Shown: in pieces, positions 2,833 through 19,842 of the stretch
Layout: the number at the start of each line of letters is the position of its first letter
Position numbering within the stretch: the stretch's first letter is position 1
IMG/VR virus record: IMGVR_UViG_3300025881_000008
Coordinates: 32,001-96,000 of that record
Strand: one strand, 5' to 3'
DNA: 64,000 nt
Source: a virus
The notes under the pieces: generated by a model
The model's input: the letters and a program-made list of their open reading frames with translations, nothing else
The model's database searches: none
What the model was told of the DNA's origin: nothing
Program-made: the position numbers and the translations under genes

Positions 2833-4041
2833 TTAAAATAATGCCGAAGCGTAAATTAGGTTAGTATCTAGTGTTTGGAGGCCGATGGCTGTCAGTACTC
2901 TGTTTAAAGGATCAATCATTGCCTTTTCAAATTGAGTATCGTAATCAACATGTGGCGCAATTTCATATGGATATTCATTTGGCATAAATGCGTAGACCTC
3001 ACTAATATTACCAATACAATTATAGATCTTTAGCTTTTCACCATTTTGAATGTGTTTATACTTATTCTTATACTTTTTATTATTATTTAAAATATAATTA
3101 TAGTAACCTGCTGCTTTTACGTTAGCTGGGCATTTTAGTCCAATCTGTAATTCTTTCTGATCGTCAATAATATATTGATCAATATTATTAGTTCTCTTAT
3201 TAAATGAAATATCATCAATATCTGCTAGCTTGAATTCCTTTTTACATTTTTTCATAAACTCAACCAGTTGTTGCAATTCTGTTGCCGTTGGTTGTATTTC
3301 TGATGTAAATAAAATTCTAAGACATTCTACTAATTTTTCTCTGGCAAATTTAGGAGTTGAAGACTGTATAGTATCAAAGCCGATGGTCTTTACTTTCTTA
3401 AGTGAAGGGTGCCTGTCAGTTACTTCTAGTTTATCATCCCATGCGATATTCTGAATGTACTTTTTCTTAGACATCCAAATACCATTATATGCTAAAGATT
3501 CAAGTTCAAATATAAGGAAGTTATCAGTGTTTCTTTTCTCTGCATATTTTTCCATACATTTACTAATATAATCTTTTAGTCTGAATGCATAGAACGCAAG
3601 AATAAACTCATCAATCTTCAGTTTCTTAGTTTCATCTGGCCATATAATAGATTCGTATAGATCTTGAAACTGTACGTAACATGAATCTGTATCAATGTAG
3701 ATTACCGCAGGTTTCTCAATTTTACCCTTTACTTTAATACCAAATTGTTCATGAACAGCAGTGTCTTTATGCCAGAAATCATTAACATACTTATTAAGAA
3801 TTATTTCTGAATAAAGAATAGCATTTTTACCCTGTTTGGTAATTGACTCAGCGATGTCAAGGTTAAAGAAGTGAAACCACTTGTTACCAAATGCACCGTA
3901 GATAGAGTTAAGAGTTAACTTAACCGCTTGCTCGTATGCAGTGTATTTGGCAGAAAGCTGCTTGTAGTGATCTACAAGCAGCTTCGCCTCATCATCTGTG
4001 AGTTGATCGATTGGTTTATTTTCTAACTCTTCGATTGTCAT
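2833..4041 (-). CDS. Family B DNA polymerase, C-terminal subunit (gp43B-like)
   Basis: Motif B KLTLNSIYG, motif C YIDTDS, KKKY motif; lacks exonuclease and motif A. Confidence 0.92.
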   Translation of the reverse strand: MTIEELENKPIDQLTDDEAKLLVDHYKQLSAKYTAYEQAVKLTLNSIYGAFGNKWFHFFNLDIAESITKQGKNAILYSEIILNKYVNDFWHKDTAVHEQFGIKVKGKIEKPAVIYIDTDSCYVQFQDLYESIIWPDETKKLKIDEFILAFYAFRLKDYISKCMEKYAEKRNTDNFLIFELESLAYNGIWMSKKKYIQNIAWDDKLEVTDRHPSLKKVKTIGFDTIQSSTPKFAREKLVECLRILFTSEIQPTATELQQLVEFMKKCKKEFKLADIDDISFNKRTNNIDQYIIDDQKELQIGLKCPANVKAAGYYNYILNNNKKYKNKYKHIQNGEKLKIYNCIGNISEVYAFMPNEYPYEIAPHVDYDTQFEKAMIDPLNRVLTAIGLQTLDTNLIYASALF

Positions 4042-4044
4042 CTA

Positions 4045-4788
4045 TTAGGCTGTTTGGCAAGTTGAAATTGTCAACAAAGTGTGTGAATCATTTGATTCGA
4101 ATACAACTTTGGAATCTGACACATAAACTGTTTGCTCTTCCTTGTCTAATAGATTCAAATACTTCTTGTAAACAGTAACTTTACCGTTACCATTTGTATC
4201 TGGCGTAAGCACTACGTTAAATGACTTACCATTTACATTGATCCCCGCAACATCAGATTTGATACCGAATGTCTCATCCTTGTCCAATGAGAATAGATTT
4301 TTAACTTTACCAATTGAGTGTGTGTCCAATTTAAAGTCAAACTGTGAATCGGTTCGTGCGAAAATCGCATCGCGTTGCTCTTGTGAGAGATCTTTAAAGC
4401 CTAATGATGGCTCAGAACAAGATAGTGTAATTTCCAGTTCGTCATTAAAAATACGAAGTGTAGAAGCTACAAACTCTTCGTCATTCTCGATGAATTCCAA
4501 CTCACCTTTAATAGCATCATGCTCAAAGTGCTTGATGGCTTCAATAACTCGATTACCTTCAAAGAAAGCAATTTTCATCTCCTTGTCAGTGTCAGGCCAT
4601 TCGCTTACTTGAAAAATGGTATCAGCTTGAATAGAGTGGTGTTTTACAGCATCTCGTTGTGGAAGATAAACTGTTGATTGGATTTGACCATCTTTAATTT
4701 TCATATAAATGAAAGAGTCAATAAGTTTAACACGATTGATAAACTCTGTTAATGCATGTTGATCAATGCGATCGATTTGTAATTTCAT
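4045..4788 (-). CDS. Sliding clamp, gp45-like
   Basis: 247 aa, acidic, two-fold alpha/beta repeat pattern, directly upstream of the polymerase subunit. Confidence 0.65.
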   Translation of the reverse strand: MKLQIDRIDQHALTEFINRVKLIDSFIYMKIKDGQIQSTVYLPQRDAVKHHSIQADTIFQVSEWPDTDKEMKIAFFEGNRVIEAIKHFEHDAIKGELEFIENDEEFVASTLRIFNDELEITLSCSEPSLGFKDLSQEQRDAIFARTDSQFDFKLDTHSIGKVKNLFSLDKDETFGIKSDVAGINVNGKSFNVVLTPDTNGNGKVTVYKKYLNLLDKEEQTVYVSDSKVVFESNDSHTLLTISTCQTA

Positions 4789-4820
4789 AAATTTATATTT
4801 TTAGATAATGATATTTGAAT

Positions 4821-4848
4821 ATTATACAGAGATCTGTGGAATAGTTTC
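4821..4848 (-). promoter_or_regulatory. Phage promoter GAAAC-N17-TATAAT for clamp and PolB-C
   Basis: - strand reads GAAAC TATTCCACAGATCTCTG TATAAT. Confidence 0.75.
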
Positions 4849-4862
4849 ATTAAAAATGAAGC

Positions 4863-4900
4863 AAAAAAAGGGCAGAGATAGTAGCGAACTTTCTCTGCCC
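4863..4900 (-). terminator. Intrinsic terminator after nrdA
   Basis: 9-bp stem GGGCAGAGA/TCTCTGCCC, 13-nt loop, followed by T7 on the - strand. Confidence 0.85.
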
Positions 4901-4950
4901 AACCCGTTAACTATAACGGTCCTAAGACGTGGTCTTTAAACCACACCTAA
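4863..4950 (-). ncRNA. Structured 3' element complementary to 23S rRNA helix 69-70
   Basis: + strand 4908-4926 TAACTATAACGGTCCTAAG = 23S nt 1911-1929 (E. coli numbering); 4881-4888 GTAGCGAA = nt 1930-1937; three tandem hairpins. Confidence 0.65.
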
Positions 4951-4951
4951 A

Positions 4952-6661
4952 TTATGCTTCGCAGCTTGCACATTCTAAAATATTTCTAGAAAATGATTGT
5001 GCTGAACTTTGACTAAATTGATAGTATAACGTTTTAACTCCTTGTTCATGTGCCTTTAAGTACAATTGATTGATATCTTTAGCAGAAACTGAAGGGTGAA
5101 TCATTAAATTAAGAGATTGAGACTGATCAATAAATTGTTGTCTTTGACCTGCTTGTAAAATTAATTCGCTTGGAGAGATTTCAATAAATGATTTAAAAAC
5201 TGCCCTTGTTGGAAAGTCTAGGTGTTGTACACTTCCATCTTTTTTCAAGATATCTTCCCAAACCGCAGGTGTATTTAAACCATATTTTTCTAATTCCTCT
5301 GTTAAGAATGGATTTTTGTAGATAGTTTTTGACTTAGCCAAATCTTTAATAAAATAATTAGATTTGATTGGTTCAATTCCCATACTTACAGCACCGTGAA
5401 TAAAAGAACTAGATTTAGTAGGTGCAATAGCAACTAATGTTGTATTAGCAAAACCTTTTCTAAGTGATCTATATCCTTTTTCGTCGTGGAGCCACATGGA
5501 AGCTGCATCAGTTTTTTCTTTAAGAGTTTTAAATATCTGGTAGTTTAATTGTTTTGCTTCCAAAGATTCAAATTCAATCAATTTAGATTGGAATAAAGAG
5601 TGGTAACCTAAAACACCAACGCCTAATGCTCTGTGTTGTTCTGCAAAACGGTGTGCTCTTGACATTCCTGGCATATTATATGACTTCTTAACGAATTCGT
5701 CCATAACTGCGTTTAAGAATAGAGTATAAGTCTCGATTGCGTCAGTGTCTTTTAATTCATCCCAATGTAGAAGATTAATAGAACCTAAACAACACACAAA
5801 TGAATTGAATGAATCTGTTGGTAATTGAATCTCACTACATAAATTAGATGCTGTGATTTCAAGACCTAGATCTTTATATGGTGAATTGTTATTTGTAGTA
5901 TCTTTAAACATAATGTATGGAAAACCAAACTCGTTACGTCTTTGGATAACTTTAGCCCATAATTTACGCTTGTCAGCATCTCCGGCTTTCATTTCTTCTA
6001 GCCATTGGTCAGTTACTGTAATACCATATTGAAGATTTTGAATTGGATTACCTTCTGTTCCCATATCTAAGAATTCAGATGCATCTGGGTGTTCAATTGG
6101 TAACCATGCTGCACATGCACCACGTCTAGCTTCTGATTGTTTACACACATCAACTGTAGTGTCATACATTCTTGCGTAGTGAACTGGACCATCTGCTGTT
6201 CCACCTGTAGAAATAGTAGCACCTCTTTCTCTAATATTACCTAAGAAAATTGAGGTTCCTCCGCCATATTTTGACATCATTCCAATTTCTCTACTTCCGT
6301 TCAAGATACTATCTAATGTGTCATCAACATTTGAACCATAACAACTGATTGGAAGTCCTTTGTCCTTTCCAAAGTTAATCCAAACCGGAGTAGACATGCT
6401 ATAAAAGCCTCTTGCCATGTAGTCTTCAAACTTCTTTGCAAAACCTTCAATCTTTAAATACTTTTCTGCGACATTTGCAATGTCTTTAATTCTTTGTTCT
6501 GGAGATTCTGTAATATAACCTCTTGATAAAAATAATCTACTTTCATCATTTAGCCAGTAATATTTTTCTCTGGTATTTATTAAATTTTCTTCTCTGTTCT
6601 CCGCGCGCGGAGTTTGTAAATCTTGCTCTTTTTCAGCAAGAACTTCACTGGCTTTTTCCAT
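4952..6661 (-). CDS. nrdA: Class I ribonucleotide reductase alpha subunit, no ATP-cone
   Basis: PISC, SNLCSEI, APTKSSS, KTLYY and C-terminal CxxC. Confidence 0.95.
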   Translation of the reverse strand: MEKASEVLAEKEQDLQTPRAENREENLINTREKYYWLNDESRLFLSRGYITESPEQRIKDIANVAEKYLKIEGFAKKFEDYMARGFYSMSTPVWINFGKDKGLPISCYGSNVDDTLDSILNGSREIGMMSKYGGGTSIFLGNIRERGATISTGGTADGPVHYARMYDTTVDVCKQSEARRGACAAWLPIEHPDASEFLDMGTEGNPIQNLQYGITVTDQWLEEMKAGDADKRKLWAKVIQRRNEFGFPYIMFKDTTNNNSPYKDLGLEITASNLCSEIQLPTDSFNSFVCCLGSINLLHWDELKDTDAIETYTLFLNAVMDEFVKKSYNMPGMSRAHRFAEQHRALGVGVLGYHSLFQSKLIEFESLEAKQLNYQIFKTLKEKTDAASMWLHDEKGYRSLRKGFANTTLVAIAPTKSSSFIHGAVSMGIEPIKSNYFIKDLAKSKTIYKNPFLTEELEKYGLNTPAVWEDILKKDGSVQHLDFPTRAVFKSFIEISPSELILQAGQRQQFIDQSQSLNLMIHPSVSAKDINQLYLKAHEQGVKTLYYQFSQSSAQSFSRNILECASCEA

Positions 6662-6686
6662 GTTGTGTGTTAAATATTTTTGTTAA

Positions 6687-7667
6687 TTAAAATAAATCGT
6701 CTTCGGTAATTGACTTGCTCTTCTTGTTATAGTCAACCTGCTTTTTATAGAAAAAATCACCCTCTTTAGTAGCTGTGATTTCTACATCGAACCATAGTGT
6801 TTTTTCTAGTTCGGTGAAATCAACATCAAATATTGGTTTCATTCCAATACGAGTTAGTGAATTATTAAATCTGTTTTGTATAAAATTCTTAATGGTATCC
6901 TTAGAAAGAAAGTCAAGCTCTCCTTTTTCAAAGATCCAATCAAGGATTTTAACTTCGGCTTCATATGCCTTTCTACACGCAGAATCAATAAGTTCTTCAA
7001 ACTCTTCATCAAACCATTCAGGGTTCTCTGCTTTAATTATATTGATTATTTCAGATCCAAAATTACCGTGAATTTCTTCTTCTTTAGATGTTGCCTCAAC
7101 TACATTTGAGATACCTTTGAATAGGTTTTTCTCTTTGTTGAAAGACATCATAATTAAGAATTGGCTAAATAAACTTACATGTTCAATAAATAATGAAAAT
7201 AGAAGTACTGATTTGGTGTACATTTTATCATCTCTACTTCTTGTACCGTCTAAATACTTTCTTAAATAAGCTATCCTGTCTTTGATAGCTGGAATTTCTA
7301 CAACATTTTGGAATTCTTTTTCCAAACCTAAAACTCTAAGTAATTGAGCGTATGCATCTTTGTGTCTTACTTCAGACTCTGCAAATGTCATACCAACATC
7401 ACCTACTTCGGTGATTGGCATTCTTTTATAAAGATCTGCCCAAAAAGTTTTAACATTAACTTCAATTTGAGCAATAGCTAACATCGCTCTCTTAATTACT
7501 TCTCTCTCTTGTTTAGAAATTTTTGTCTTGAAGTCGTCAATATCTGTGGTAAAATTAAATTCAGTGTGGATCCAGTATGAGTGTCTAATAGCGTCTTTAT
7601 AAGCTAATAGTTGTGGATATTCGTATGGTAGGATATTAACCCTTGGTGCAAAAATGTTCTTATTCAT
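6687..7667 (-). CDS. nrdB: Class I ribonucleotide reductase beta subunit
   Basis: QIEVNVK, ESEVRHKDAY, FIEHVSLF, KEEEIHG ligand motifs; DFF and C-terminal DDLF. Confidence 0.95.
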   Translation of the reverse strand: MNKNIFAPRVNILPYEYPQLLAYKDAIRHSYWIHTEFNFTTDIDDFKTKISKQEREVIKRAMLAIAQIEVNVKTFWADLYKRMPITEVGDVGMTFAESEVRHKDAYAQLLRVLGLEKEFQNVVEIPAIKDRIAYLRKYLDGTRSRDDKMYTKSVLLFSLFIEHVSLFSQFLIMMSFNKEKNLFKGISNVVEATSKEEEIHGNFGSEIINIIKAENPEWFDEEFEELIDSACRKAYEAEVKILDWIFEKGELDFLSKDTIKNFIQNRFNNSLTRIGMKPIFDVDFTELEKTLWFDVEITATKEGDFFYKKQVDYNKKSKSITEDDLF

Positions 7668-7690
7668 ACAGTTAGTTTATTTTAGTAATT

Positions 7691-7698
7691 TATATATC
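7691..7698 (-). promoter_or_regulatory. Putative late promoter GATATATA upstream of nrdB
   Basis: Motif recurs in about ten intergenic or gene-end positions; similar to the T4 late promoter TATAAATA. Confidence 0.55.
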
Positions 7699-7724
7699 GG
7701 TTAGTGGTTGAGGGTATTGGTAAT

Positions 7725-9128
7725 TTACAGTTTAAATTTTTTTTCAATTTCGTGTGCCTTCTCATAATATGAGTATGAGGTCTTTTTATAGTCTTTACGT
7801 TGAGCATATAAATCACTCAGAATTTTCTTAAGAATAGAGTCTTCTTTCTTAAAGACTACACCATTCTCACAAACGATTACCGACTCATCTTTTCGTCTTT
7901 CGTTAATATCTGCTTGTGGTATTTGTTCAACATAGGATTCGGGGGAAATATTAAATTGTCTCATAATAGATGGATATAGAGAGGCAAAGTCAAATGCACT
8001 TACTCCACTGTAGTATCCAACAATAGGTTGCTTTACAAATGCTCCTTCAAATTTACCATCTTTAAGAGAATCCGCTTTACCATACTCTACTCCAATTTTT
8101 TTATTTGTTTCAGCTAGCTTTCTGGCTAATAGTGATTCTGTAATTGCCACTGGTGATGAGGCTTTATAAAGAGGCATTCTAGTAATAGTGGCCAATGTTA
8201 ATAGAACTTCCATTGATCTTAATTGCTTGTCTATATAATAAACCAAACAGGAGTCAATTACGTTGTAGTAGACATATTTAGTAAAATCATTTTCATAAAG
8301 ATCTTGTAATGAACCTGTGTATTTAATTTTGGTAACATCTAAAACTGCACCTGACACAAAGTCTAATGAGTTAGATTCTTTTACCGCAACTGATCTGTCA
8401 TATTTGTCATATAATTGCATGTAATCTAAAATACCCATATGAAGAGGTCTACTATCATTTCTGTCAAGTGATCCAGTGATCGCCACATCAGTCAGGTCGA
8501 TCTGAAGTCTCTTGCAACGATTAACTATATACTGCCAGTCATAGTTGATAAAATTCCATCCAGTCATCATTGGGAACTTAGGTAAAAACTTATGCAAGAA
8601 TGTATATAACATATTGTACTCATTATCAAATTTATGATATGAGAATTCCCAATCTTGATCATAGTTCTTTAGGTGGGCATTAGTATCTTTCTCAATTTTA
8701 GCAATCTGCTCTGATGTTAAATCTTCAAGACCTAATACAATTGCTTTACGCTCAGGCGTGATGATCGAGAAGGTTAAGATACGTGACTTAGCCTCTTCTG
8801 GTTTTGGGAAACCATCAACGATTTCTGTTTCAATATCGACGAAATATGTTCGAGGCATATTGAATTCATAAATCTCTTCTTTATCTGCCGCTGGCAGGCT
8901 ATCCATAAAATAGAGTAGACTGAACTTATTAAATGACTTAGCGATACCTCTTTTTAGTGGGCGATTGTCCCAGTTTCTAAAAGTCTTATCCTTATATTTA
9001 TCTTTTTCTTCTGTAACTACCCAATTTTGGAATTGGTTTACAGTGTATCTTTTAAAGGAAACTTTACCCTCTTTGTCATAATAAGAGATGATAAGTTCCT
9101 TGTCAGTTTGTTCAATGTCTAATAGCAT
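7725..9128 (-). CDS. Family B DNA polymerase, N-terminal subunit (exonuclease and motif A; gp43A-like)
   Basis: ExoI DIET, ExoII GWNFINYD, ExoIII YNVID, motif A DFASLYPS; ends just after the RxxxKK fingers helix. Confidence 0.92.
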   Translation of the reverse strand: MLLDIEQTDKELIISYYDKEGKVSFKRYTVNQFQNWVVTEEKDKYKDKTFRNWDNRPLKRGIAKSFNKFSLLYFMDSLPAADKEEIYEFNMPRTYFVDIETEIVDGFPKPEEAKSRILTFSIITPERKAIVLGLEDLTSEQIAKIEKDTNAHLKNYDQDWEFSYHKFDNEYNMLYTFLHKFLPKFPMMTGWNFINYDWQYIVNRCKRLQIDLTDVAITGSLDRNDSRPLHMGILDYMQLYDKYDRSVAVKESNSLDFVSGAVLDVTKIKYTGSLQDLYENDFTKYVYYNVIDSCLVYYIDKQLRSMEVLLTLATITRMPLYKASSPVAITESLLARKLAETNKKIGVEYGKADSLKDGKFEGAFVKQPIVGYYSGVSAFDFASLYPSIMRQFNISPESYVEQIPQADINERRKDESVIVCENGVVFKKEDSILKKILSDLYAQRKDYKKTSYSYYEKAHEIEKKFKL

Positions 9129-9595
9129 TAGTAGCCTCTTTTTTGACGGTTCTTATTTTCTTCTGCTTTTGCGAAATAATAATTATATGCTGTCTTTGCA
9201 TCGAGGCCAATTGATGCCGCATAATTAATAAAGAAGTGCAATACATCAATCCACTCCATAAAAAGTTCTTTACGATCATCTTCTGATAGATCAGAAACTT
9301 TTATTGTCTCGTACTTTTTAAAGTCTGCTTTCCAGTATTTCCAAACTGCGTTCCCTGAGCCATCTTTAATGCCTCCTAATGCGTCTGTCATTTCGTGTAG
9401 TTCATCTATCACTGCATGTGTGTTAACATGCCAGAAGTCCATTACCTCGCGAATAGACATGTTCTCAAACTTAATGCCATAAGTTTTTTCTTGCATCTCT
9501 TTTTGATGAGACATAATGTCTTCTAAGTGTGTCGTTGAATCATTGTAAAAATCTTTTACTTCAAGATCTTTGCATTCGTTATCTATATTTGCCAT
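9128..9595 (-). CDS. Dimeric dUTPase/dCTPase (all-alpha NTP pyrophosphatase, gp56-like)
   Basis: DELHE...WKYWK...EWIDVLHFF...K-x-x-EN-x-x-RQ-x-x-GY. Confidence 0.85.
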   Translation of the reverse strand: MANIDNECKDLEVKDFYNDSTTHLEDIMSHQKEMQEKTYGIKFENMSIREVMDFWHVNTHAVIDELHEMTDALGGIKDGSGNAVWKYWKADFKKYETIKVSDLSEDDRKELFMEWIDVLHFFINYAASIGLDAKTAYNYYFAKAEENKNRQKRGY

Positions 9596-9613
9596 ATGTA
9601 ATTTGTTATATTA

Positions 9614-9641
9614 TTAGTATGCTAATTTGTGAGATAGTTTC
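9614..9641 (-). promoter_or_regulatory. Phage promoter GAAAC-N17-TACTAA
   Basis: Variant of the recurring motif, upstream of dUTPase and PolB-N. Confidence 0.55.
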
Positions 9642-9645
9642 ATTG

Positions 9646-10542
9646 TTATTTGTCCATTTCTAAAACTTCTCCCCATTCTCTTTGAGAATTAGTTTTTTCT
9701 TTAGTTTCTTCTGATTCTGGATAGGGTTGTCCACCTACATTCCAAAACCATGCACCGGGCGTTCCGTGTTTTTTCATAAATTCCCAAGCTTTAGCATCAT
9801 AGTTCATTGCAGATGGAAATGGTGGTGCGTATTTAGGATTTACATCAGCGGCAAATGCCTTAGGATGTGACCAAACTTTTGCTTTACCTAATTCACCATC
9901 TTTAATATTCCTAGATACTGCTACTGCGTTAAATTGAGCATCTGGCCATGCAATCTGCAAAGAGCGCTGTAATACGCCTGTTGAAATAGCAGACCAAACC
10001 TCTTCGGGGTATCCATGTTTTTCTGCAATATCATACGCTACTTTAACAGCCGCTGCTGTTACTAATTCATGTTTTAAACCCAATGGTATAAAAGTTGCAT
10101 TGTTTGCTTCCGCCCATTCTTTTGCTATTTTATTTAAATTTGGCATGGCAGCAATTCTTCTGAACTTAGGTATTGCACCCCTCTCAATACAAATAGCTTG
10201 ATGATCTGAAATTACTTTACCTGAAGGCATAAATAAAACCAGTTTCTTGTTATACTTATTTGCCAAATAAGCAAGAGAAATTCCCGCAAATCCAAATCTG
10301 GGCTGTACATAAACTAATGTATCTGTTGGTGCTTTTTGAACTAAAATATCTCCGAATCTACATTTGGATCCAAACCCCATCATATCATCTCTGACTACAT
10401 TGAAACCATCGTGATTCATTATAATAGGATCTTCTAGTGGATCTTTCCAGTCACCAGCTAAATCTAACCATGCTTGTCTATTTGGCATCATTAGATTTAA
10501 GTCTTGGTTCATTTTACTTGTTGTGTGAGTATCATGTGCCAT
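9646..10542 (-). CDS. Fold-type II PLP-dependent enzyme (ACC deaminase/cysteine desulfhydrase-like; phage base-modification type)
   Basis: VVRDD...GSKCR (PLP lysine), STGVL phosphate loop, YDAKAW, FWNVG. Confidence 0.82.
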   Translation of the reverse strand: MAHDTHTTSKMNQDLNLMMPNRQAWLDLAGDWKDPLEDPIIMNHDGFNVVRDDMMGFGSKCRFGDILVQKAPTDTLVYVQPRFGFAGISLAYLANKYNKKLVLFMPSGKVISDHQAICIERGAIPKFRRIAAMPNLNKIAKEWAEANNATFIPLGLKHELVTAAAVKVAYDIAEKHGYPEEVWSAISTGVLQRSLQIAWPDAQFNAVAVSRNIKDGELGKAKVWSHPKAFAADVNPKYAPPFPSAMNYDAKAWEFMKKHGTPGAWFWNVGGQPYPESEETKEKTNSQREWGEVLEMDK

Positions 10543-10543
10543 A

Positions 10544-11215
10544 TTAAAAGTTTGTTTTAGGTCCTAAATATTCTGGACTAGTCATATATTTGTTATGGTA
10601 TTCCATTACTTTGTTTCTAGCTTCATCTGCACTATCGACAATTCTAAATAGATCAAAATCCTTTTCACTCATTCTACCTGAACCCAATAATTGATCCTTC
10701 ATCCAATCAATTAAACCGCCCCAGTACTTTTTACCGACTAGGACTATTGGATATGTTATATTATGGCCGGTCTGTGCAAGGGTTATGGCTTCGAACATTT
10801 CATCTAATGTACCCACTCCACCTGGAAAAATAACAAAGGCTTGTGAATATTTAAGAAACATTACTTTACGAGTAAAGAAATATCTACATTCTACTCCGAG
10901 GTCAACATATTTGTTCATGCCAGATTCAAATGGTAATTCAATTCCAATTCCAATAGATTTTCCACCTACTTCTTTAGCGCCGTGGTTTGCGGCTTGCATA
11001 ATACCAGGTCCACCTCCAGTAATCACTCCAAACCCTTCACAGGCTATTAGCTTACCGAATAGTTTCGCCTCTTCATACCATTTAGTTCCTGTCATTGTTC
11101 TAGCACTTCCAAAAACGGAAATACAGGGTCCTAATTCACTGAATGTATCAAATCCTTTGGTAAATTCACCCTGGATTCGCATGATCTGCCATGCGTCTTC
11201 TGCTTTATTTCTCAT
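10544..11215 (-). CDS. LOG (Lonely Guy) family nucleotide phosphoribohydrolase
   Basis: SVFGSAR, TGGGPGIM, FFTRK, PGGVGTLDE. Confidence 0.92.
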   Translation of the reverse strand: MRNKAEDAWQIMRIQGEFTKGFDTFSELGPCISVFGSARTMTGTKWYEEAKLFGKLIACEGFGVITGGGPGIMQAANHGAKEVGGKSIGIGIELPFESGMNKYVDLGVECRYFFTRKVMFLKYSQAFVIFPGGVGTLDEMFEAITLAQTGHNITYPIVLVGKKYWGGLIDWMKDQLLGSGRMSEKDFDLFRIVDSADEARNKVMEYHNKYMTSPEYLGPKTNF

Positions 11216-12420
11216 ATATTAGCTACCATTTTTTTATATTCTTCTACTGAAACATTAGCAGATTGTAGTATTTTATCATCTGACGGGAATGAAGTCATGC
11301 CATTAAATGTTTCAACTAGACCTAAGTCTAACATTGCTTTTTGTCTACCATACGGATGGTCTTTGATAGAAGACGAGTTCCATAAAGTATCCATGTTAAT
11401 ATGTGCATAATCAGCACCAGGTCTTAGATAGTTTTCAATCCATCTAATAAAGTCGCATGCAACATCTTCTGCATTATATGGCAATGAACCAGTGTCTTCG
11501 TATATTTTAGTCATTACTGCATCTAGAAACGGTTCACTTCTTTTACCTTTGTAATCGACCGGATCTGCTAAATAACCAATACATTCTACTGCATTTGTGC
11601 CGTAATAGAACATTGATTCTCTGTTGATATATTCTGGGTACCAGTCAGCCACGTCTGCAATAACAGCTGCGTATTGGAATTTATATTGTCTCAGTCCGTT
11701 TGCAACATTCCAATCAAACATCCATTGACCAAGTTGTCTTAAGTCTTTTTTACCACCATCTCTCAAATAACCTGCCATGTCTCTAGCCAATCTTGGTGCA
11801 AATTCACACAAGAAATAATCCCCGCCTCGTTTATAGACATATTCTGGTTCTTTAAATGATGACATACCAACAAAACTATCCTCATTTTGAGTTGGTTGTG
11901 GAGGTTTAGGAAATGCTGGAAATTGATAACCAACTGAAGTGTAGAATGGCGTTGGGTGGTATTTTACCTTTTCACACATTTCTTCAATTGTATCGCAATC
12001 GTGTAGATCAAATAGGATTGTATTATGATAACCAGATGGTTTGGTAGCGTAGTTAATTGCTGAGCCACAAACTCGATGGAGAATAAAAACATACAACCAT
12101 TCTTCTAGGCCAAAAATATCTTGTCGACTAGTCCAATTTTTTGCAACCTCTTCTCTTTGGGGGTAAATTTTACCAGCTTGCATATGTTGCCAATACGGAT
12201 GTTTATCTGTCCATCCATAAAAACAATCATTTATAATTTGACTAAAACCAGCATACTTTCGTTCCACAACATCATACAGTTGTATATGTTCCATTAAAGG
12301 ATCATTCATACCACTTTCATCATGTGGCACCATGCCTAAATTACTAAGCTCTTGTTGTTTTAATGCTAAATTAAAATACCTAATAAATTCGTCATAATAT
12401 TGGGTTGTCTTAATTTTCAT
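11212..12420 (-). CDS. Amino acid:DNA transferase (aGPT-Pplase)-like protein, HhH glycosylase fold
   Basis: FQYAAVIAD, YGTNA and terminal EDVACDF resemble the aGPT-Pplase core; PLP enzyme neighbour. ATG 12420 preferred to the track's TTG 12429. Confidence 0.6.
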   Translation of the reverse strand: MKIKTTQYYDEFIRYFNLALKQQELSNLGMVPHDESGMNDPLMEHIQLYDVVERKYAGFSQIINDCFYGWTDKHPYWQHMQAGKIYPQREEVAKNWTSRQDIFGLEEWLYVFILHRVCGSAINYATKPSGYHNTILFDLHDCDTIEEMCEKVKYHPTPFYTSVGYQFPAFPKPPQPTQNEDSFVGMSSFKEPEYVYKRGGDYFLCEFAPRLARDMAGYLRDGGKKDLRQLGQWMFDWNVANGLRQYKFQYAAVIADVADWYPEYINRESMFYYGTNAVECIGYLADPVDYKGKRSEPFLDAVMTKIYEDTGSLPYNAEDVACDFIRWIENYLRPGADYAHINMDTLWNSSSIKDHPYGRQKAMLDLGLVETFNGMTSFPSDDKILQSANVSVEEYKKMVANI

Positions 12421-12574
12421 TTTGCTCAATTATTTTCCATGCAAATGGATCTCTATTTCTAGCATATTCATCCATTGACCATTCTATATCACCAGTGGTA
12501 ATTTCTATACTATATGATGCATCCGTAGCATGATATGGTGTTATCTCTATCTTGTATAATTTAGTGTATTTCAT
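12410..12574 (-). CDS. 54-aa hypothetical protein
   Basis: Manual translation MKYTKLYKIEITPYHATDASYSIEITTGDIEWSMDEYARNRDPFAWKIIEQNEN*; tightly coupled to both neighbours. Confidence 0.65.
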   Translation of the reverse strand: MKYTKLYKIEITPYHATDASYSIEITTGDIEWSMDEYARNRDPFAWKIIEQNEN

Positions 12575-12575
12575 T

Positions 12576-13646
12576 TTAAAATAATGCTGTTTGTATTTGT
12601 ACTACTTTTAGTTTTTTATTTGGTTCATTATTAACAAGATCCCATCGATAAAATTCTCTAGCGATGTGAACTGATTTAGGTTTTTCCATTACATCAAAAC
12701 TTAACTCACCAATCGGATTTTTATATGCACCTGAGTGTTTCCATGTACTCCATCCATTGCGAGTACACATATCAACAATCATTTCATTCATAAGTTTCAC
12801 AAGATCAGTTCTCTCTTGCCAAGAACCAGCAAATGGGGTGTCTTTATAATAACCAGTCTTTGGTAATTGCCTAGACTCATTCTCAATTGGCAATGCTTGT
12901 ATAACTTCAATGGTTTTAATACCCGATTGTTGAAGTGTTTGTTCATATTGCACCATCATCTTAGTCAGTGCTGATACGGGATCATCCTGTCGCATTAAAT
13001 GATGTCTTATGTCGATATTACCAAGATATATCCTAAGCTCATTAGTCCATGGGTATACATAATCTAATAGACCTCTCTTTAGAGTTCCAAATAGAGTTAA
13101 ACCATCATTACGATTGACCATAAAACCTGGCGTATATTGACTAAAACTATGTGAGTCTCCAAAGCAAAGCTTATCGGTCTTTTCAATATGGTCTACTCTT
13201 TGGATTCCAGAGCAAATCTCTCTAGCCTCTTCAATTCTAGTCTCAAGTGTTTTAAATAGTTCCGAGCCAGTCTTTAATCTCTTCTCAATTAATTCTGCAA
13301 TTGAAGGCATATCATGATGTAGTGAATACATCCTAGGACCTTTAGTAAAAAGTCTATTAATCTGGTGGAATAACTCGTCGTTAGCCCCGCCGAATATATT
13401 GAACGCACCTTTATATTCCATACCATGCTCAAGAAGGACTACATCAAATTCCGACCAGTCCGTAGTCCAATCTGTAATTACAGTAGCATTCTTATAACCA
13501 GCATTTACCAATTGGTTACACAGCATAAAAGCCCAACCAGACTTATGTGAGCTTGGCTTAGGGCTTAATTTACCAACAAGTGCAGATATTGCTATCTTAA
13601 TTGACTTGTCAGATTCATAATCTGTAAAGTATTTAAAGTTCTGCAT
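12576..13646 (-). CDS. T4 beta-glucosyltransferase-like N-terminal domain fused to an SGNH hydrolase/acyltransferase domain
   Basis: N-half KIAI...FDVVLL...FNIFGG...YSLHHDMP parallels T4 BGT; C-half has FGDSHS, LGNID and a terminal catalytic-type H (KSVH). Likely start is ATG 13646. Confidence 0.6.
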   Translation of the reverse strand: MQNFKYFTDYESDKSIKIAISALVGKLSPKPSSHKSGWAFMLCNQLVNAGYKNATVITDWTTDWSEFDVVLLEHGMEYKGAFNIFGGANDELFHQINRLFTKGPRMYSLHHDMPSIAELIEKRLKTGSELFKTLETRIEEAREICSGIQRVDHIEKTDKLCFGDSHSFSQYTPGFMVNRNDGLTLFGTLKRGLLDYVYPWTNELRIYLGNIDIRHHLMRQDDPVSALTKMMVQYEQTLQQSGIKTIEVIQALPIENESRQLPKTGYYKDTPFAGSWQERTDLVKLMNEMIVDMCTRNGWSTWKHSGAYKNPIGELSFDVMEKPKSVHIAREFYRWDLVNNEPNKKLKVVQIQTALF

Positions 13647-13944
13647 CTTCTGTACCCATTGGTTTTTCAGTTTCACCATAACCATACTTCTTAATATAGT
13701 TATCTAAGCCACCGATATACGCCACTGCGTCAAGTAGATTGTCTTCTTTATAATTATATGAATGTCTACTTAGTTTTAATGCAACAAGTGCTGCGTACAT
13801 GTCCGCTCCGGTGAATTCTTTACCAGTCATTCCGCCACAAATCATTGCAGCTCGGCGCATGCCTTCTTCAAAAGGACCATACATGCGTTCTTTCTCTTCT
13901 GAACGATGATTAATAATTTTGTCTGCTTCGTTTAAAATATTCAT
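13633..13944 (-). CDS. DUF6378-like phage nucleotide-metabolism protein
   Basis: ILxEAxxII...R...YG...LKLSR...DNLLDAVAY. Confidence 0.75.
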   Translation of the reverse strand: MNILNEADKIINHRSEEKERMYGPFEEGMRRAAMICGGMTGKEFTGADMYAALVALKLSRHSYNYKEDNLLDAVAYIGGLDNYIKKYGYGETEKPMGTEDAEL

Positions 13945-13960
13945 GTGTAATTGGTTTATT

Positions 13961-13988
13961 GTTATATGGTATATTTTTGATTTGTTTA
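13961..13988 (-). promoter_or_regulatory. Phage promoter TAAAC-N17-TATAAC heading the modification operon
   Basis: One mismatch to the recurring GAAAC-N17-TATAA motif. Confidence 0.6.
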
Positions 13989-14010: not shown

Positions 14011-14172
14011 TTAATCATTGTCTTTATTAGTGTTTATGTCTTTTTTCCAAGACTTGTCCTTTCTATTATATTTAGATTCGTCGCCATGGTCCTTTTGAAT
14101 CATTTTACGACGTATCATGGCAGCGAGATGCCTCTCGTTATATCCATCAATATCTTTTTTCTTCTTTGCCAT
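14011..14172 (-). CDS. 53-aa basic protein, weakly ArfA-like
   Basis: Manual translation MAKKKKDIDGYNERHLAAMIRRKMIQKDHGDESKYNRKDKSWKKDINTNKDND*. Confidence 0.65.
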   Translation of the reverse strand: MAKKKKDIDGYNERHLAAMIRRKMIQKDHGDESKYNRKDKSWKKDINTNKDND

Positions 14173-14197: not shown

Positions 14198-14264
14198 TAA
14201 ATATAATAAAAAAAGGCCAAACAAAAAAATGTTTGGCCAATTATTTTCAAAAAGTTATTAACAA
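14198..14264 (-). promoter_or_regulatory. Bacteroidota-type (host sigma) promoter candidate with upstream TTGTTAATAAC box
   Basis: - strand TATATTTA at 14205-14198 (cf. TAnnTTTG) with TTTG upstream. Confidence 0.5.
14208..14238 (-). terminator. Intrinsic terminator ending the internal-protein block
   Basis: 9-bp stem GGCCAAACA/TGTTTGGCC followed by T7. Confidence 0.75.
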
Positions 14265-17994: not shown

Positions 17995-19842
17995 TTATAT
18001 ATTCTTAATAAATTGATCGAAGGTCATAACAGATTTTGACTCTGCCAAAACACCCATACTGTCTTCTAATTTAGACTTTAATTCACCATACATGTTGTGT
18101 ATCTCTTTAGGTGTTAGTTTCTTAAATAGCTTCTCATCACCATCTAGCATTGCATTTCTAACTTGCGTAGCTGAAATATTTTTACCAGTTCTTGGAATTT
18201 CAAAAAGACCAAAATCAGTCCTTACACCCAAGTCTTCTCTATATTCTGGTTTATCAACTTGATATGAATACGTTTTAAGTCTATCACTTCCAGTGCCCCA
18301 TAATACGGGTTCATAACCATCGGCTCTCATTGTATTAAACATTAGGTCAATTGCTCCCCTGTCAATAATATAAACCTTCTCAATTGGATATTTACCTTTT
18401 AGTTGGTTTAACATTTGAAGTTGAGTTTCTTCGTCGTATGGTCTAGAAAAAGCATCCTCTTTCTTTTTAGTTTTTGATTTAACTAGAAAAACAACTACCG
18501 GATAACCGTTTTGTTTATTAATAGTCTCAACTACTTTAGCATGGCCCAGCGTAAATGGTTGGAATCTACCAACGAACATGTTGACTGGTGTTTTACCTTG
18601 TTCTGGGTATTTAACTGTAAGCCCCTCTAAAACTGGACTAACTTCATGTTGAAGTTTTTGGTTAACTAAATATGTTTTAAATGTCATAACGTCATTTTCA
18701 TTTGTTTTTGCCATTACAATGCCTTCTATAGTTTCAACTATTTCATTGATTTGGTTCATTAAGTCAGTGTTAATAATGTCTGTTTCTCTAGTTCTCTTCT
18801 TTCTAAAACTACCTAACGCAATTTTAAATAACTCTGCCAAAACTTTATTTTGAATTAATGATATTGTTTTTTCATCTTTAATAAATGTACGATTAAGATC
18901 AAATCCTTTGTTGTCTGAGAAATCAGCTGAATCAAAATTAGCTCCAATATATTTAGAGGCATTCTTTTCAATGTATGCATTAAATATATTTGAGATTAAT
19001 TCAATATATCTAAGGTCTGACTCTTCTTCTGATATTTCAATAGCTAATAAATCATAGTTAGTAATAAATTCTACTAGATCTAAAATTGAAATCTGATACA
19101 TGTCAGATGGACTTCTTTCCTCTTGTGGTTTTCTATCAAATCTCTCTAGCTTAAAACTCTTAATGTTTTTACCTTCGTAGAAATTGATTATTAACCCATC
19201 AATATCTTTATCTAGTGTAAAGTTTAACGCAGGAGTATTAAGGCCATTATTAAATATATTGTATATTGTTCTAGTAAATGATTGTGATTCAAACTTAGTT
19301 ATGAAGTCTTGATCAGATGTGTTTAGAAGCGATATAAGGTCGTCCTTTTGATTAGATTGTAGTTTACCTTCAAATACAATTGGCGGTCTCTGAACTCCTA
19401 ATTTATCCGCCCATTTGTTTAGAACCTGTGGATCTCTAATTACTTTTTTAATTTGAGTAGGATCATTTGGGTTTAATACTTGTATATGTGTTAGGATTAA
19501 GTGGTTTTTAGGTAGTACATCATATTCAATGCTTACCGTTTTATTATCCAACATGTAGTCAAAGCCGAATTTCCAATCTAATGGCATCTCTTCGGTAACT
19601 TCTTTTAATATTGTTGAAAAATATTTAATACCATTTTCATAGTATTTAACCATGGTTCTATCTACTCTATCCATCTGGTATTTAGAACCGCTTTTATAAT
19701 AGTTAAAGCCTGTATCGGTTCTTTTAACATGAAATGAAGATGCTTGAATCTTTTCAGATACAACGCATGTCAGGTCCAACATAGCCAAAAAGTCATTGGT
19801 ATTAGTTGATTCAAAATATGTTCTTAAGTTTTGTAAAGCCAT
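17995..19842 (-). CDS. Degenerate RNA-ligase-fold domain fused to a HIGH-family (cytidylyl/NMN adenylyl-type) nucleotidyltransferase
   Basis: C-domain GRFQPFTLGH...GSDR...ISATQVR; N-domain SEKIQAS and IDGLII resemble ligase motifs I and IV. Confidence 0.75.
   Translation of the reverse strand: MALQNLRTYFESTNTNDFLAMLDLTCVVSEKIQASSFHVKRTDTGFNYYKSGSKYQMDRVDRTMVKYYENGIKYFSTILKEVTEEMPLDWKFGFDYMLDNKTVSIEYDVLPKNHLILTHIQVLNPNDPTQIKKVIRDPQVLNKWADKLGVQRPPIVFEGKLQSNQKDDLISLLNTSDQDFITKFESQSFTRTIYNIFNNGLNTPALNFTLDKDIDGLIINFYEGKNIKSFKLERFDRKPQEERSPSDMYQISILDLVEFITNYDLLAIEISEEESDLRYIELISNIFNAYIEKNASKYIGANFDSADFSDNKGFDLNRTFIKDEKTISLIQNKVLAELFKIALGSFRKKRTRETDIINTDLMNQINEIVETIEGIVMAKTNENDVMTFKTYLVNQKLQHEVSPVLEGLTVKYPEQGKTPVNMFVGRFQPFTLGHAKVVETINKQNGYPVVVFLVKSKTKKKEDAFSRPYDEETQLQMLNQLKGKYPIEKVYIIDRGAIDLMFNTMRADGYEPVLWGTGSDRLKTYSYQVDKPEYREDLGVRTDFGLFEIPRTGKNISATQVRNAMLDGDEKLFKKLTPKEIHNMYGELKSKLEDSMGVLAESKSVMTFDQFIKNI

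What the first reader, a model, noticed from the sequence alone, without database searches (positions are those of the whole stretch)
9128..13988. Putative DNA hypermodification operon with an unusual enzyme set including LOG
Seen: one tightly coupled run of DUF6378, BGT-N/SGNH fusion, a 54-aa ORF, an aGPT-Pplase-like protein, LOG, a PLP enzyme and a dimeric dUTPase, leading directly into the polymerase. Known: amino acid:DNA transferases with PLP enzymes build aminoalkyl-thymidines in ViI/M6-type phages, and dNTP pyrophosphatases remove the canonical nucleotide. An SGNH-type acyl enzyme and a LOG phosphoribohydrolase are not part of those characterised pathways as I know them. No dUMP hydroxymethylase or 5hmdU kinase is visible in this window. 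Inference: a possibly new modified base, with LOG adjusting the nucleotide pool or recycling modified NMPs.
Basis: partly seen in the sequence, partly recalled or inferred. Interest (0 to 1): 0.75.

Follow-up and report, generated by a model that had tools for sequence, protein, structure and literature searches.

The report
Kinase-less phage cytosine hypermodification operon
An uncultured marine jumbo phage carries, just upstream of its DNA polymerase, distant relatives of the enzymes that graft amino acids onto thymine in other phages' DNA; here they are tied to hydroxymethylcytosine and partnered with an esterase-fold protein instead of the usual DNA kinase, so the virion DNA probably holds a decorated cytosine that no paper I could find describes.

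Summary
Observation confirmed. Seven tightly packed minus-strand genes (13944 to 9128) run from a strong terminator (14215-14238) into a split family-B polymerase.

- **405-aa protein:** no HMM hit. Its confident model is an HhH-GPD/aGPT-Pplase fold (best PDB match PaMx11 gp46 amino-acid:DNA transferase, Z 9.9). It keeps an invariant Glu321-x3-Cys325, the catalytic dyad spacing of that superfamily.
- **369-aa protein:** an unassigned alpha/beta N-domain plus an SGNH domain. The claimed BGT-N likeness is not significant.
- **PLP protein:** falls in the PHROG of M6 gp52, a proven DNA-base decarboxylase.
- **"dUTPase":** a gp56 (dCTPase/dUTPase) homologue.

The SGNH, aGPT-like and PLP genes form a conserved triad. 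The first two co-occur in 80/80 related loci and are fused into one protein elsewhere.

In six relatives the triad lies beside a T4 gp42-type dCMP hydroxymethylase, between polymerase and UvsX, where T4 keeps genes 42 and beta-gt. Two complete relatives have such a gene but no 5-hmdU DNA kinase. The target is therefore probably 5-hydroxymethylcytosine, not thymidine.

LOG is genuine but optional (about 12 of 61 loci). Nothing is biochemically tested. This scan has already recorded the same cassette on other genomes, with the same reading.

The parts
14215..14238 (-). Intrinsic terminator that ends the upstream (structural/cargo) transcription unit; marks the 5' boundary of the operon
   Evidence: 9-bp stem with 5 GC pairs, then TTTTTTTATT
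13633..13944 (-). DUF6378 protein, 103 aa; first gene of the run, function unknown
   Evidence: PF19905 1.3e-9. Precedes the SGNH gene in 69 of 80 related loci, but is absent from the alternative PolB_C-UvsX arrangement
12576..13685 (-). Two-domain protein (P0002): alpha/beta N-domain (about residues 25-160) plus SGNH hydrolase/acyltransferase-fold C-domain (about 169-356). Proposed activating or acyl-transfer partner of the transferase-like enzyme. The true start may be the Met at 13679 or 13646
   Evidence: Model pLDDT 88. SGNH matches: Foldseek probability 1.0 and VIA Z up to 14.1. Invariant GDSHS (S178), GNID (N223) and H340. Fused to the 405-aa family in other genomes
12410..12574 (-). 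54-aa ORF, acidic, no known family
   Evidence: Found in the same position in 53 of 80 related loci; no Pfam, PHROG or NCBIfam hit
11212..12429 (-). aGPT-Pplase-superfamily (HhH-GPD-like fold) protein P0001, 402-405 aa. Proposed Cys-dependent group transferase acting on a C5-substituted pyrimidine in DNA
   Evidence: Model pLDDT 93.6. Top structural match 8z2m PaMx11 gp46, Z 9.9, followed by a run of HhH-GPD enzymes. Invariant E321, C325, D259, G277. Nearest language-model clusters carry PF18723/PF18724
10544..11215 (-). LOG-family nucleotide 5'-monophosphate phosphoribohydrolase, 223 aa; optional insert in the operon
   Evidence: PF03641 6.7e-32. 8e-73 to type-II LOG 5zi9, with GGGPG and PGGxGTxxE motifs intact. 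Present in about 12 of 61 loci, always in this slot
9646..10542 (-). Fold-type-II PLP enzyme, 298 aa, of the M6 gp52 family; proposed tailoring (decarboxylation) of an amino-acid-base conjugate in DNA
   Evidence: phrog_7093 8.3e-38. M6 gp52 hits the same PHROG at 2e-159. Lys60 invariant and aligned with the PLP lysine of cysteine synthase. Follows the transferase-like gene in distant loci
9128..9595 (-). gp56-type all-alpha dCTPase/dUTPase homologue, 155 aa
   Evidence: BLASTP to Aeromonas phage 31 gp56: 35% identity over 106 aa, E 2e-23. phrog_173 at 1.9e-13
7725..9128 (-). N-terminal part of a split family-B DNA polymerase (context; start overlaps the stop of the gp56-like gene)
   Evidence: PF03104 and PF00136; C-part at 2833-4041

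Best explanation
This is a post-replicative DNA pyrimidine hypermodification cassette, co-transcribed with the replication genes of a marine jumbo phage with T4-like core genes. Its conserved core is three enzymes: the SGNH two-domain protein, an aGPT-Pplase-superfamily protein with a Glu-x3-Cys dyad, and a PLP enzyme of the M6 gp52 family. Inferred pathway: a gp56-like dCTPase and a gp42-type dCMP hydroxymethylase (seen in relatives, not in this partial contig) put 5-hydroxymethylcytosine into the DNA. The SGNH protein stands where the 5-hmdU DNA kinase stands in known pathways and prepares the 5-hydroxymethyl group, most simply by esterifying it into a leaving group. The aGPT-like enzyme attacks C6 with Cys325, expels the leaving group and lets a nucleophile (probably an amino acid) add to the exocyclic methylene. 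The PLP enzyme then tailors the appended amino acid, probably by decarboxylation. Shown here: folds, motifs, family memberships, gene fusion, gene order and linkage to the gp42-like gene in relatives. Inferred: the substrate, the order of steps, the role of the SGNH domain and the final base. LOG is an optional add-on of unknown role, not a core step.
For: - Fold: the P0001 model (pLDDT 93.6) matches PaMx11 gp46 5-PmdU glycinyltransferase best (Z 9.9, rmsd 3.9 over 209 residues). About 19 further HhH-GPD-superfamily enzymes follow.
- Motif: E321 and C325 are invariant in 43 homologues down to 21% identity, and C325 is the only invariant Cys. The same E-x3-C lies near the C-terminus of AADTs (E243/C247, catalytic per PMC11472151 and PMC8989533) and of PF18723 members.
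- Language-model neighbours carry PF18723/PF18724.
- PLP enzyme: same PHROG as M6 gp52, the proven DNA-base PLP decarboxylase (PMC8989533). Lys60 is invariant. A homologue is fused to a DNA methyltransferase domain in Erythrobacter phage R6L.
- Functional linkage: P0002 and P0001 co-occur in 80/80 loci. They are one fused 640-790-aa protein in other genomes. The PLP gene follows them in distant loci.
- Cytosine link: in six loci the order is PolB_C > gp42-like (RSNDVVFGYRND, DFICT) > dCMP deaminase > P0001 > P0001 paralogue > PLP > P0002 > UvsX, which is T4's 43-42-bgt-uvsX slot. ThyA-like genes of complete relatives G001 and G006, and of G003 and G009, all have Asp at the ThyA-N177 position, like T4 gp42. 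The 155-aa protein is a gp56 homologue.
- No PF18723 or PF18724 match in the two complete relatives.
- Aeromonas phages 31/44RR/25 have genes 42 and 56 but no glucosyltransferase (PMC2993671). They carry a P0002-like domain fused to a helical C-domain with a weak PF18723 hit.
Against: - No sequence profile links P0001 to PF18723 or PF18724. Pfam finds nothing even at E 10. hhalign against an AADT profile is not significant and aligns a different region.
- A Z of about 10 for an all-helical protein is only moderate (caveat). Residue-level equivalence of C325 with Cys247 could not be checked.
- This contig itself has no ThyA-family gene, so the cytosine link rests on relatives with 67-77% identical P0001.
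- ThyA homologues with the same Asp can make 5-hydroxy-dCMP instead (PMC13326640), which would not support this chemistry.
- No acyl donor or nucleophile is identified. SGNH enzymes are mostly hydrolases, and the usual Asp of the SGNH triad is missing (S-V-H instead of D-x-x-H).
- No biochemical or mass-spectrometric data exist.
Confidence: 0.6

Rival explanations
1. Thymidine hypermodification: 5-hmdU is incorporated, and the aGPT-like and PLP enzymes build an aminoalkyl-thymidine as in ViI or M6.
For: The only characterised members of this enzyme superfamily, and of the gp52-type PLP family, act on 5-hmdU derivatives (PMC8989533, PMC11472151). The structural best hit is a 5-PmdU enzyme.
Against: Every ThyA-like paralogue found in cassette-bearing genomes has Asp, not Asn, at the base-specificity position and resembles T4 gp42; the known dUMP hydroxymethylase of SH-Ab 15599 differs there. 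G001 and G003 also keep a canonical ThyA. No 5-hmdU DNA kinase domain is found in complete relatives. A gp56 homologue and, in relatives, a dCMP deaminase accompany the set.
Confidence: 0.1
2. The SGNH protein is the real modifying enzyme and the aGPT-like protein is only its DNA-binding, base-flipping module, as the PF18723 helical domain is named for the 5-hmdU DNA kinase. The product would be an O-acylated (for example aminoacylated) 5-hydroxymethylcytosine, trimmed by the PLP enzyme, with no displacement at the methylene.
For: The nearest language-model clusters and the motif context E-x3-C-[DE]-[FM]-x-[KR]-[YW] resemble PF18723 (HMUDK_hel) more than PF18724. The fused SGNH-helical architecture recurs in two very divergent forms, the marine family and Aeromonas phage 31 ORF233c. 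SGNH O-acetyltransferases (PatB, OatA) are among the fold matches.
Against: The Cys and Glu are invariant across the family, which points to catalysis rather than mere binding. A second aGPT-like paralogue occurs in some cassettes, like the paralogous pairs of known pathways (PMC8989533).
Confidence: 0.15
3. This is nucleotide-pool or salvage metabolism, not DNA modification: the HhH-GPD-fold protein is a QNG1/DUF2419-like nucleotide N-glycosidase acting with LOG and the pyrophosphatases on free nucleotides.
For: QNG1 (7ugk, 7u07) scores Z 9.0, within 1 of the top hit. LOG is a nucleotide N-glycosidase. Two NTP-pyrophosphatase-like genes flank the run.
Against: LOG is absent from most versions of the cassette. 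The PLP partner belongs to a family proven to act on DNA and is fused to a DNA methyltransferase elsewhere. The invariant Glu-x3-Cys is the dyad of the DNA transferases. The cassette occupies T4's DNA-modification slot.
Confidence: 0.07
4. The precursor base is 5-hydroxycytosine (RB69/DLP3 type) rather than 5-hydroxymethylcytosine, and the cassette decorates the 5-hydroxyl.
For: RB69 gp48-type 5hodCMP synthases are also ThyA homologues with the N177D change and an acidic residue at the L143 position (PMC13326640). Sequence alone cannot fully separate the two activities.
Against: The cassette-linked enzymes share T4 gp42's RSNDVVFG[FY]RND and INSNYG motifs, and have Asp (as T4 gp42) rather than the Glu reported for RB69 and DLP3 at the L143 position. 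A Cys/C6-addition mechanism needs a 5-CH2-X group.
Confidence: 0.08

Closest known systems
Thymidine hypermodification pathways of phages M6, PaMx11, ViI, PhiW-14 and SH-Ab 15599 (dUMP hydroxymethylase, 5-hmdU DNA kinase, amino-acid:DNA transferase = aGPT-Pplase2/PF18724, PLP decarboxylase; PMC8989533, PMC5889632, PMC11472151, PMC13458397)
   Same: Same fold for the transferase-like enzyme (best PDB hit). Same Glu-x3-Cys dyad. PLP enzyme in the same PHROG as M6 gp52. Genes clustered near replication genes. A paralogous aGPT-like pair in some versions. Fusions between the activating enzyme and the transferase occur in both systems.
   Different: No HMM-level membership in PF18723 or PF18724. 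No 5-hmdU DNA kinase in complete relatives; an SGNH two-domain protein takes that place. The linked ThyA-family enzyme is dCMP-specific by its specificity residue, so the base is probably cytosine.
T4 hydroxymethylcytosine/glucosylation system (gp56 dCTPase, gp42 dCMP hydroxymethylase, alpha- and beta-glucosyltransferases)
   Same: A gp56 homologue in the operon. A gp42-type enzyme in relatives. In six relatives the triad sits between polymerase and UvsX, exactly where T4 has 42 and beta-gt.
   Different: No glycosyltransferase. Similarity of the P0002 N-domain to BGT is not significant. The tailoring enzymes are of the amino-acid-transfer type.
Aeromonas phages 31, 44RR2.8t and 25: ORF233c-type 795-aa protein (uncharacterised)
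   Same: The N-terminal 350 aa are homologous to P0002 (28-35% identity, E to 4e-48). It is fused to a helical C-domain with a weak PF18723 hit and an E-x3-C motif. These phages have genes 42 and 56 but no glucosyltransferase (PMC2993671).
   Different: The C-domain is not detectably homologous to P0001. No gp52-type PLP gene was seen next to it; a Na+/solute symporter lies upstream.
QNG1/DUF2419 queuosine-5'-monophosphate glycosidase and HhH-GPD DNA glycosylases (AGOG, Ogg, AlkA, Nth, MutY)
   Same: Shared overall fold (Z 9.0 down to about 5).
   Different: No sequence similarity. P0001 has the Cys/Glu dyad of the DNA transferases, and its conserved partners are a PLP enzyme and an SGNH protein.

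Membership tests
aGPT-Pplase superfamily (PF18724 ADDT / PF18723 HMUDK_hel) | Significant match to the family HMMs | tested here: not met
   No Pfam hit for P0001 even at E 10, nor for 10 distant homologues. No PF18723 or PF18724 match in the contig. hhalign against an AADT profile: probability 1%
aGPT-Pplase superfamily (PF18724 ADDT / PF18723 HMUDK_hel) | Two-helical-bundle, HhH-GPD-like fold as in PaMx11 gp46 | tested here: met
   8z2m_A is the top of 48,161 chains: Z 9.9, rmsd 3.9, 209 residues. The next 19 rows are all HhH-GPD-superfamily enzymes. Foldseek alone was not significant
aGPT-Pplase superfamily (PF18724 ADDT / PF18723 HMUDK_hel) | Conserved catalytic Cys with a Glu four residues before it, near the C-terminus | tested here: met
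   E321 and C325 are invariant in 43 sequences. The same spacing is seen in gp46/gp51 (E243/C247), SH-Ab Orf49 and M6 gp55. Structural equivalence is inferred from collinear ranges only
aGPT-Pplase superfamily (PF18724 ADDT / PF18723 HMUDK_hel) | Co-occurrence with a P-loop 5-hmdU DNA kinase and a dUMP hydroxymethylase | tested here: not met
   No HMUDK_hel in the two complete relatives. The linked ThyA homologues are dCMP-type
aGPT-Pplase superfamily (PF18724 ADDT / PF18723 HMUDK_hel) | Transfer of an amino acid or amine to an activated 5-methylene of a pyrimidine in DNA | not testable with these tools
   Needs enzymology
SGNH/GDSL hydrolase-acyltransferase superfamily | SGNH fold with block I Ser, block III Asn and block V His | tested here: met
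   Foldseek probability 1.0; VIA Z 14.1 over residues 169-356. GDSHS (S178), GNID (N223) and H340 are invariant
SGNH/GDSL hydrolase-acyltransferase superfamily | Asp three residues before the catalytic His (D-x-x-H) | tested here: not met
   The sequence reads K-S-V-H (337-340), with S338 invariant
T4 beta-glucosyltransferase N-terminal (acceptor) domain | Detectable homology of P0002 residues about 25-160 to the BGT N-domain | tested here: inconclusive
   hhalign E 0.016, probability 2.8%, 48 columns around an N-x-F-G-G motif. Smith-Waterman z 1.3, with 114 of 1000 shuffles as good.
M6 gp52-type PLP-dependent DNA-base decarboxylases (phrog_7093; fold type II) | Family profile match and conserved Schiff-base lysine | tested here: met
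   phrog_7093 at 8.3e-38 over profile positions 13-278 of 279. M6 gp52 scores 2e-159 on the same profile. K60 is invariant and aligned to the PLP lysine motif of cysteine synthase. Pfam PF00291 scores only 22.9 bits, below its cut-off of 35
LOG (PF03641; cytokinin riboside 5'-monophosphate phosphoribohydrolase family) | HMM above cut-off and the GGGxG / PGGxGTxxE motifs | tested here: met
   110.9 bits against a cut-off of 27. TIGR00730 at 149 bits against 96. 8e-73 to 5zi9; motifs GGGPG and PGGVGTLDE present
T4 gp56 dCTPase/dUTPase | Homology to a recognised gp56 allele | tested here: met
   35% identity over 106 aa, E 2e-23, to Aeromonas phage 31 gp56. The substrate preference (dCTP or dUTP) is not testable here
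T4-type 5-hydroxymethylcytosine DNA | gp42-type dCMP hydroxymethylase in the same genome | tested here: inconclusive
   None in this 104-kb contig, but its usual neighbour ClpP is missing too, so that region is simply not sampled. It is present in both complete relatives and adjacent to the triad in six loci

The most novel reading that the evidence does not exclude
A DNA-directed SGNH acyltransferase replaces the nucleobase kinase. It esterifies 5-hydroxymethylcytosine in duplex DNA, so that a new clade of Cys-dependent aGPT-Pplase enzymes can swap the ester for an amino acid. A gp52-type PLP enzyme then decarboxylates that amino acid. The result would be an aminoalkyl- or aminoalkoxymethyl-cytosine: a new natural DNA base made by a new activation chemistry, and widespread in marine jumbo phages.
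Probability: 0.25. Interest if true: 0.85.

Novelty: new variant of a known kind. Interest (0 to 1): 0.68.

Why it matters
- **Chemistry.** All characterised amino-acid-type DNA hypermodifications are on thymidine and start with a nucleobase kinase. A cytosine-directed, kinase-less version would add a new natural base. It would probably also add a new way of activating a base in duplex DNA.
- **Abundance.** The family is common. A large share of marine jumbo-phage DNA may therefore be chemically different from what sequencing pipelines and restriction-based methods assume.
- **Old question.** It offers candidate genes for a question raised in 2010: what do T4 relatives that have genes 42 and 56 but no glucosyltransferase do with their hydroxymethylcytosine (PMC2993671)?
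- **Applications.** Such enzymes are also of interest as tools for labelling 5-hmC.

Tried and rejected
**Searches that found nothing**
- blastn of the whole region against phage records: no match.
- tblastn of P0001 against phages: no match.
- Pfam, PHROGs and NCBIfam for P0001: nothing.
- PDB sequence searches with P0001, P0002 and the A1 profile: nothing.
- Foldseek of the P0001 model: no significant hit. Only the exhaustive VIA search resolved the fold.
- PDB sequence searches for DUF6378 and the gp56-like protein: nothing useful.
- Language-model search with the P0002 N-domain: no usable hit.
- Search for longer, fused forms of the PLP enzyme: none found, which is weak evidence.
- P0166-type fusion in IMG/VR: none.

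**Comparisons that were not significant**
- hhalign of the P0001 family against single AADT or HMUDK_hel sequences, an AADT profile, and the Aeromonas phage 31 C-domain. Two of these aligned the same D259/G277 region.
- BGT-N homology: not significant.

**Readings rejected**
- LOG as a core pathway enzyme, rejected on distribution.
- A host-derived recent insert for LOG: not supported, because its GC and GC3 match the neighbouring genes.

**Other**
- Literature searches found no paper that describes this cassette, or an SGNH enzyme in DNA hypermodification.

Full report
**Setting**

The window is bases 32001-96000 of a 104-kb linear IMG/VR virus contig, estimated at about 34% complete. GC content is about 33% and nearly all genes are on the minus strand.

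The contig has T4-type core genes:
- gp20 portal and gp21-type prohead protease
- gp46/47-like nuclease
- UvsX
- nrdA and nrdB
- a family-B polymerase split into an N-part (7725-9128) and a C-part (2833-4041)

Its portal is closest to an uncultured 462-kb huge phage (55% identity) and, among cultured phages, to Sphingomonas phage PAU (31%). Complete relatives are 225 and 256 kb. This is therefore a marine jumbo phage with a T4-like core, not a member of the T-even group.

**The observation**

They are joined by overlaps or 1-nt gaps, apart from one 50-nt gap. A strong intrinsic terminator at 14238-14215 (minus strand) ends the preceding unit, and nothing comparable interrupts the run down to the polymerase.

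**The 405-aa protein (P0001)**

No sequence method names this protein. Pfam gives nothing even at E 10, and PHROGs, NCBIfam and PDB sequences are also empty.

It has a large family: 946 clusters at 90% identity, and 140 representatives at 50% identity.

An AlphaFold2 model built on 43 diverse homologues is confident (pLDDT 93.6, pTM 0.91). Foldseek found nothing significant. An exhaustive alignment against 48,161 PDB representatives gave these top hits:
- PaMx11 gp46, the 5-phosphomethyl-dU glycinyltransferase and the only solved aGPT-Pplase/AADT: Z 9.9, rmsd 3.9 Å over 209 residues
- QNG1/DUF2419: Z 9.0
- AGOG: Z 8.4
- an unbroken run of HhH-GPD glycosylases

A Z near 10 is moderate for a helical protein. 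The coherence of the top 20 rows is what makes the fold assignment credible.

The family alignment has one invariant cysteine, C325, with an invariant E321 four residues before it. In PaMx11 gp46 the active site is Glu243-Thr244-x-x-Cys247, and Cys247 attacks C6 of the pyrimidine (PMC11472151). Mutating the equivalent Cys or Glu kills M6 gp51 and ViI gp247 (PMC8989533).

I confirmed that E243/T244/C247 are invariant in six AADTs. I also found the same E-x3-C near the C-terminus of PF18723 members (SH-Ab 15599 Orf49, M6 gp55) and of Aeromonas phage 31 ORF233c. The wider context in P0001, E-x3-C-[DE]-[FM]-x-[KR]-[YW], matches the PF18723 sequences best.

A protein-language-model search placed P0001 next to viral clusters in which 11-14% of members carry PF18723. 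A PF18724 cluster came at score 0.90.

Against this, profile-profile comparison with an AADT alignment is not significant. I could not obtain a residue-level superposition. I therefore file P0001 as a new, very divergent clade of the aGPT-Pplase superfamily, on fold and motif rather than on HMM membership.

**The 369-aa protein (P0002)**

The model (pLDDT 88) has a C-terminal SGNH domain, residues 169-356. Foldseek gives probability 1.0 to sialate O-acetylesterases and GDSL lipases. VIA gives Z up to 14.1, with the peptidoglycan O-acetyltransferases PatB and OatA among the matches. The motifs GDSHS (S178), GNID (N223) and H340 are invariant. The usual Asp before the His is missing.

The N-domain (about residues 25-160) is a beta-alpha-beta unit that I could not assign.

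**Functional linkage**

- P0002 and P0001 co-occur in all 80 of the closest IMG/VR loci.
- In other genomes they are a single polypeptide of 640-790 aa, with P0002 as the N-half and P0001 as the C-half.
- In distant loci (L095, L097, L098) the pair, fused or adjacent, is followed directly by a homologue of the PLP gene at 47-53% identity.

The conserved core is thus a triad. DUF6378 (69 of 80 loci), the 54-aa ORF (53 of 80) and the gp56-like gene are frequent neighbours but not obligatory ones.

**The PLP enzyme**

Pfam PF00291 is below its cut-off (22.9 bits). The protein matches phrog_7093 at 8.3e-38 over almost the whole profile. M6 gp52, shown experimentally to decarboxylate a glycine-thymine conjugate in DNA (PMC8989533), is a full-length member of that same PHROG at 2e-159.

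Lys60 is invariant and aligns with the Schiff-base lysine motif of cysteine synthases. The only cultured-phage homologues point to DNA as the substrate of this family:
- a domain fused to a DNA methyltransferase in Erythrobacter phages R6L and ZS04
- a gene next to two ParB genes in Microcystis phage Mae-JY30

**Which base?**

The contig has no ThyA-family gene. The region that carries one in relatives, next to ClpP/ClpX, is not sampled here or in three other partial contigs.

Both complete relatives have a divergent ThyA homologue: G001 (256 kb) and G006 (225 kb, with the fused form). So do G003 and G009.

All of these have Asp at the position of E. coli ThyA Asn177. That residue confers dCMP specificity and is shared with T4 and Aeromonas phage 31 gp42. 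Canonical ThyAs have Asn there, and the SH-Ab 15599 dUMP hydroxymethylase aligns differently at that position (rule as stated in PMC13326640).

Most tellingly, six loci with 67-71% identical P0001 have this order: PolB_C > gp42-like (RSNDVVFGYRND, DFICT) > dCMP deaminase > P0001 > a 325-aa P0001 paralogue (hhalign 70%, E 4e-5) > PLP > P0002 > UvsX. This is the slot where T4 has 43-imm-42-bgt-segA-uvsX.

The 155-aa "dimeric dUTPase" is a homologue of gp56, the T4-family dCTPase/dUTPase (E 2e-23 to the phage 31 allele). No PF18723 or PF18724 domain, and hence no recognisable 5-hmdU DNA kinase, is found in the complete relatives.

Cultured Aeromonas phages 31, 44RR and 25 are long known to have genes 42 and 56 but no glucosyltransferase (PMC2993671). 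They carry a P0002-like domain fused to a helical domain with a weak PF18723 hit.

One caveat applies. RB69-type ThyA homologues with the same Asp make 5-hydroxy-dCMP. The motifs here are nearer to T4 gp42, but the activity is untested.

**LOG**

The gene is a bona fide LOG: PF03641 at 6.7e-32, 8e-73 to the type-II LOG 5zi9, with both signature motifs.

It is present in only about 12 of 61 related loci that cover the slot between P0001 and the PLP gene. It is absent from the distant and alternative arrangements, and has the same base composition as its neighbours.

It is an optional resident of the operon. Its role, perhaps pool adjustment, is open. It cannot be a required step.

**Mechanism proposed**

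Shown:
- folds, motifs and family memberships
- the gene fusion
- synteny with the T4 modification slot
- linkage to gp42-type and gp56-type enzymes
- absence of the kinase

Inferred:
- 5-hmC is incorporated before or during replication.
- P0002 prepares the hydroxymethyl group, most simply by acyl transfer through Ser178 to create an ester leaving group. This takes the role of phosphorylation.
- P0001 adds Cys325 to C6, eliminates the leaving group and admits an amino-acid nucleophile.
- The PLP enzyme tailors the product.

I give about 0.75 to "DNA base hypermodification cassette", about 0.6 to "on a cytosine derivative", and about 0.25-0.3 to the acyl-activation step.

**Novelty and earlier records**

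I found no paper that describes this cassette, or any SGNH enzyme in DNA hypermodification.

After reaching the reading above, I looked up the scan's own notes. The same cassette has been reported from other genomes, with follow-up agents reaching the same "kinase-less hydroxymethylcytosine" reading. These are not independent evidence.

What this window adds is the LOG-bearing variant, and the evidence that LOG is optional.

Noticed in passing
window 2833-9128 (minus strand): The family-B DNA polymerase is split into two genes (N-part 7725-9128, C-part 2833-4041). nrdB, nrdA and a 247-aa ORF of unknown function (4045-4788) lie between the halves. This order is conserved in many relatives. Aeromonas phage 31 also has a split 43A/43B, but there the halves are adjacent.
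   Followed up: partly
window 14011-14172 (minus strand): A 53-aa lysine-rich ORF sits between the terminator at 14215-14238 and the DUF6378 gene. It was not examined further.
   Followed up: no
L004:4438-8418 (Aeromonas phage 31, NC_007022): ORF233c (795 aa) is a P0002-like domain plus a helical C-domain with a weak PF18723 hit and an E-x3-C motif. The gene just upstream encodes a sodium:solute symporter (PF00474, 7e-53), a possible importer of a modification substrate.
   Followed up: partly
L099 (Erythrobacter phage vB_EliS_R6L gp1) and L100:5387-7705 (Microcystis phage Mae-JY30): Homologues of the gp52-type PLP enzyme occur as the C-terminal part of a protein annotated as DNA modification methylase, and as a gene following two ParB/sulfiredoxin genes. 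Both are annotated as 'methylase', which is probably wrong for the PLP-like part.
   Followed up: partly
L078:649-6792: The alternative arrangement of the cassette also holds a PRA-PH/MazG-like pyrophosphatase, a dCMP deaminase, and a second, very divergent paralogue of the aGPT-like protein (325 aa). The window has none of these three.
   Followed up: partly
window 475-1050 (minus strand): A 2OG-Fe(II) oxygenase (PF13640, 6e-9) lies two genes downstream of UvsX. I did not test whether it is related to nucleic-acid dioxygenases.
   Followed up: no
window 17995-19842 (minus strand): A 615-aa protein has a C-terminal cytidylyltransferase-like domain (PF01467, 5.5e-8). It lies in the block upstream of the operon that another first-reader note reads as capsid cargo.
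   Followed up: no
L089:296-3446 and L088:319-3619 (relatives G001, G003): In the complete relative the gp42-like gene lies next to phage-encoded ClpP and ClpX/ClpB-like ATPase genes, about 90 kb from the cassette.
   Followed up: no
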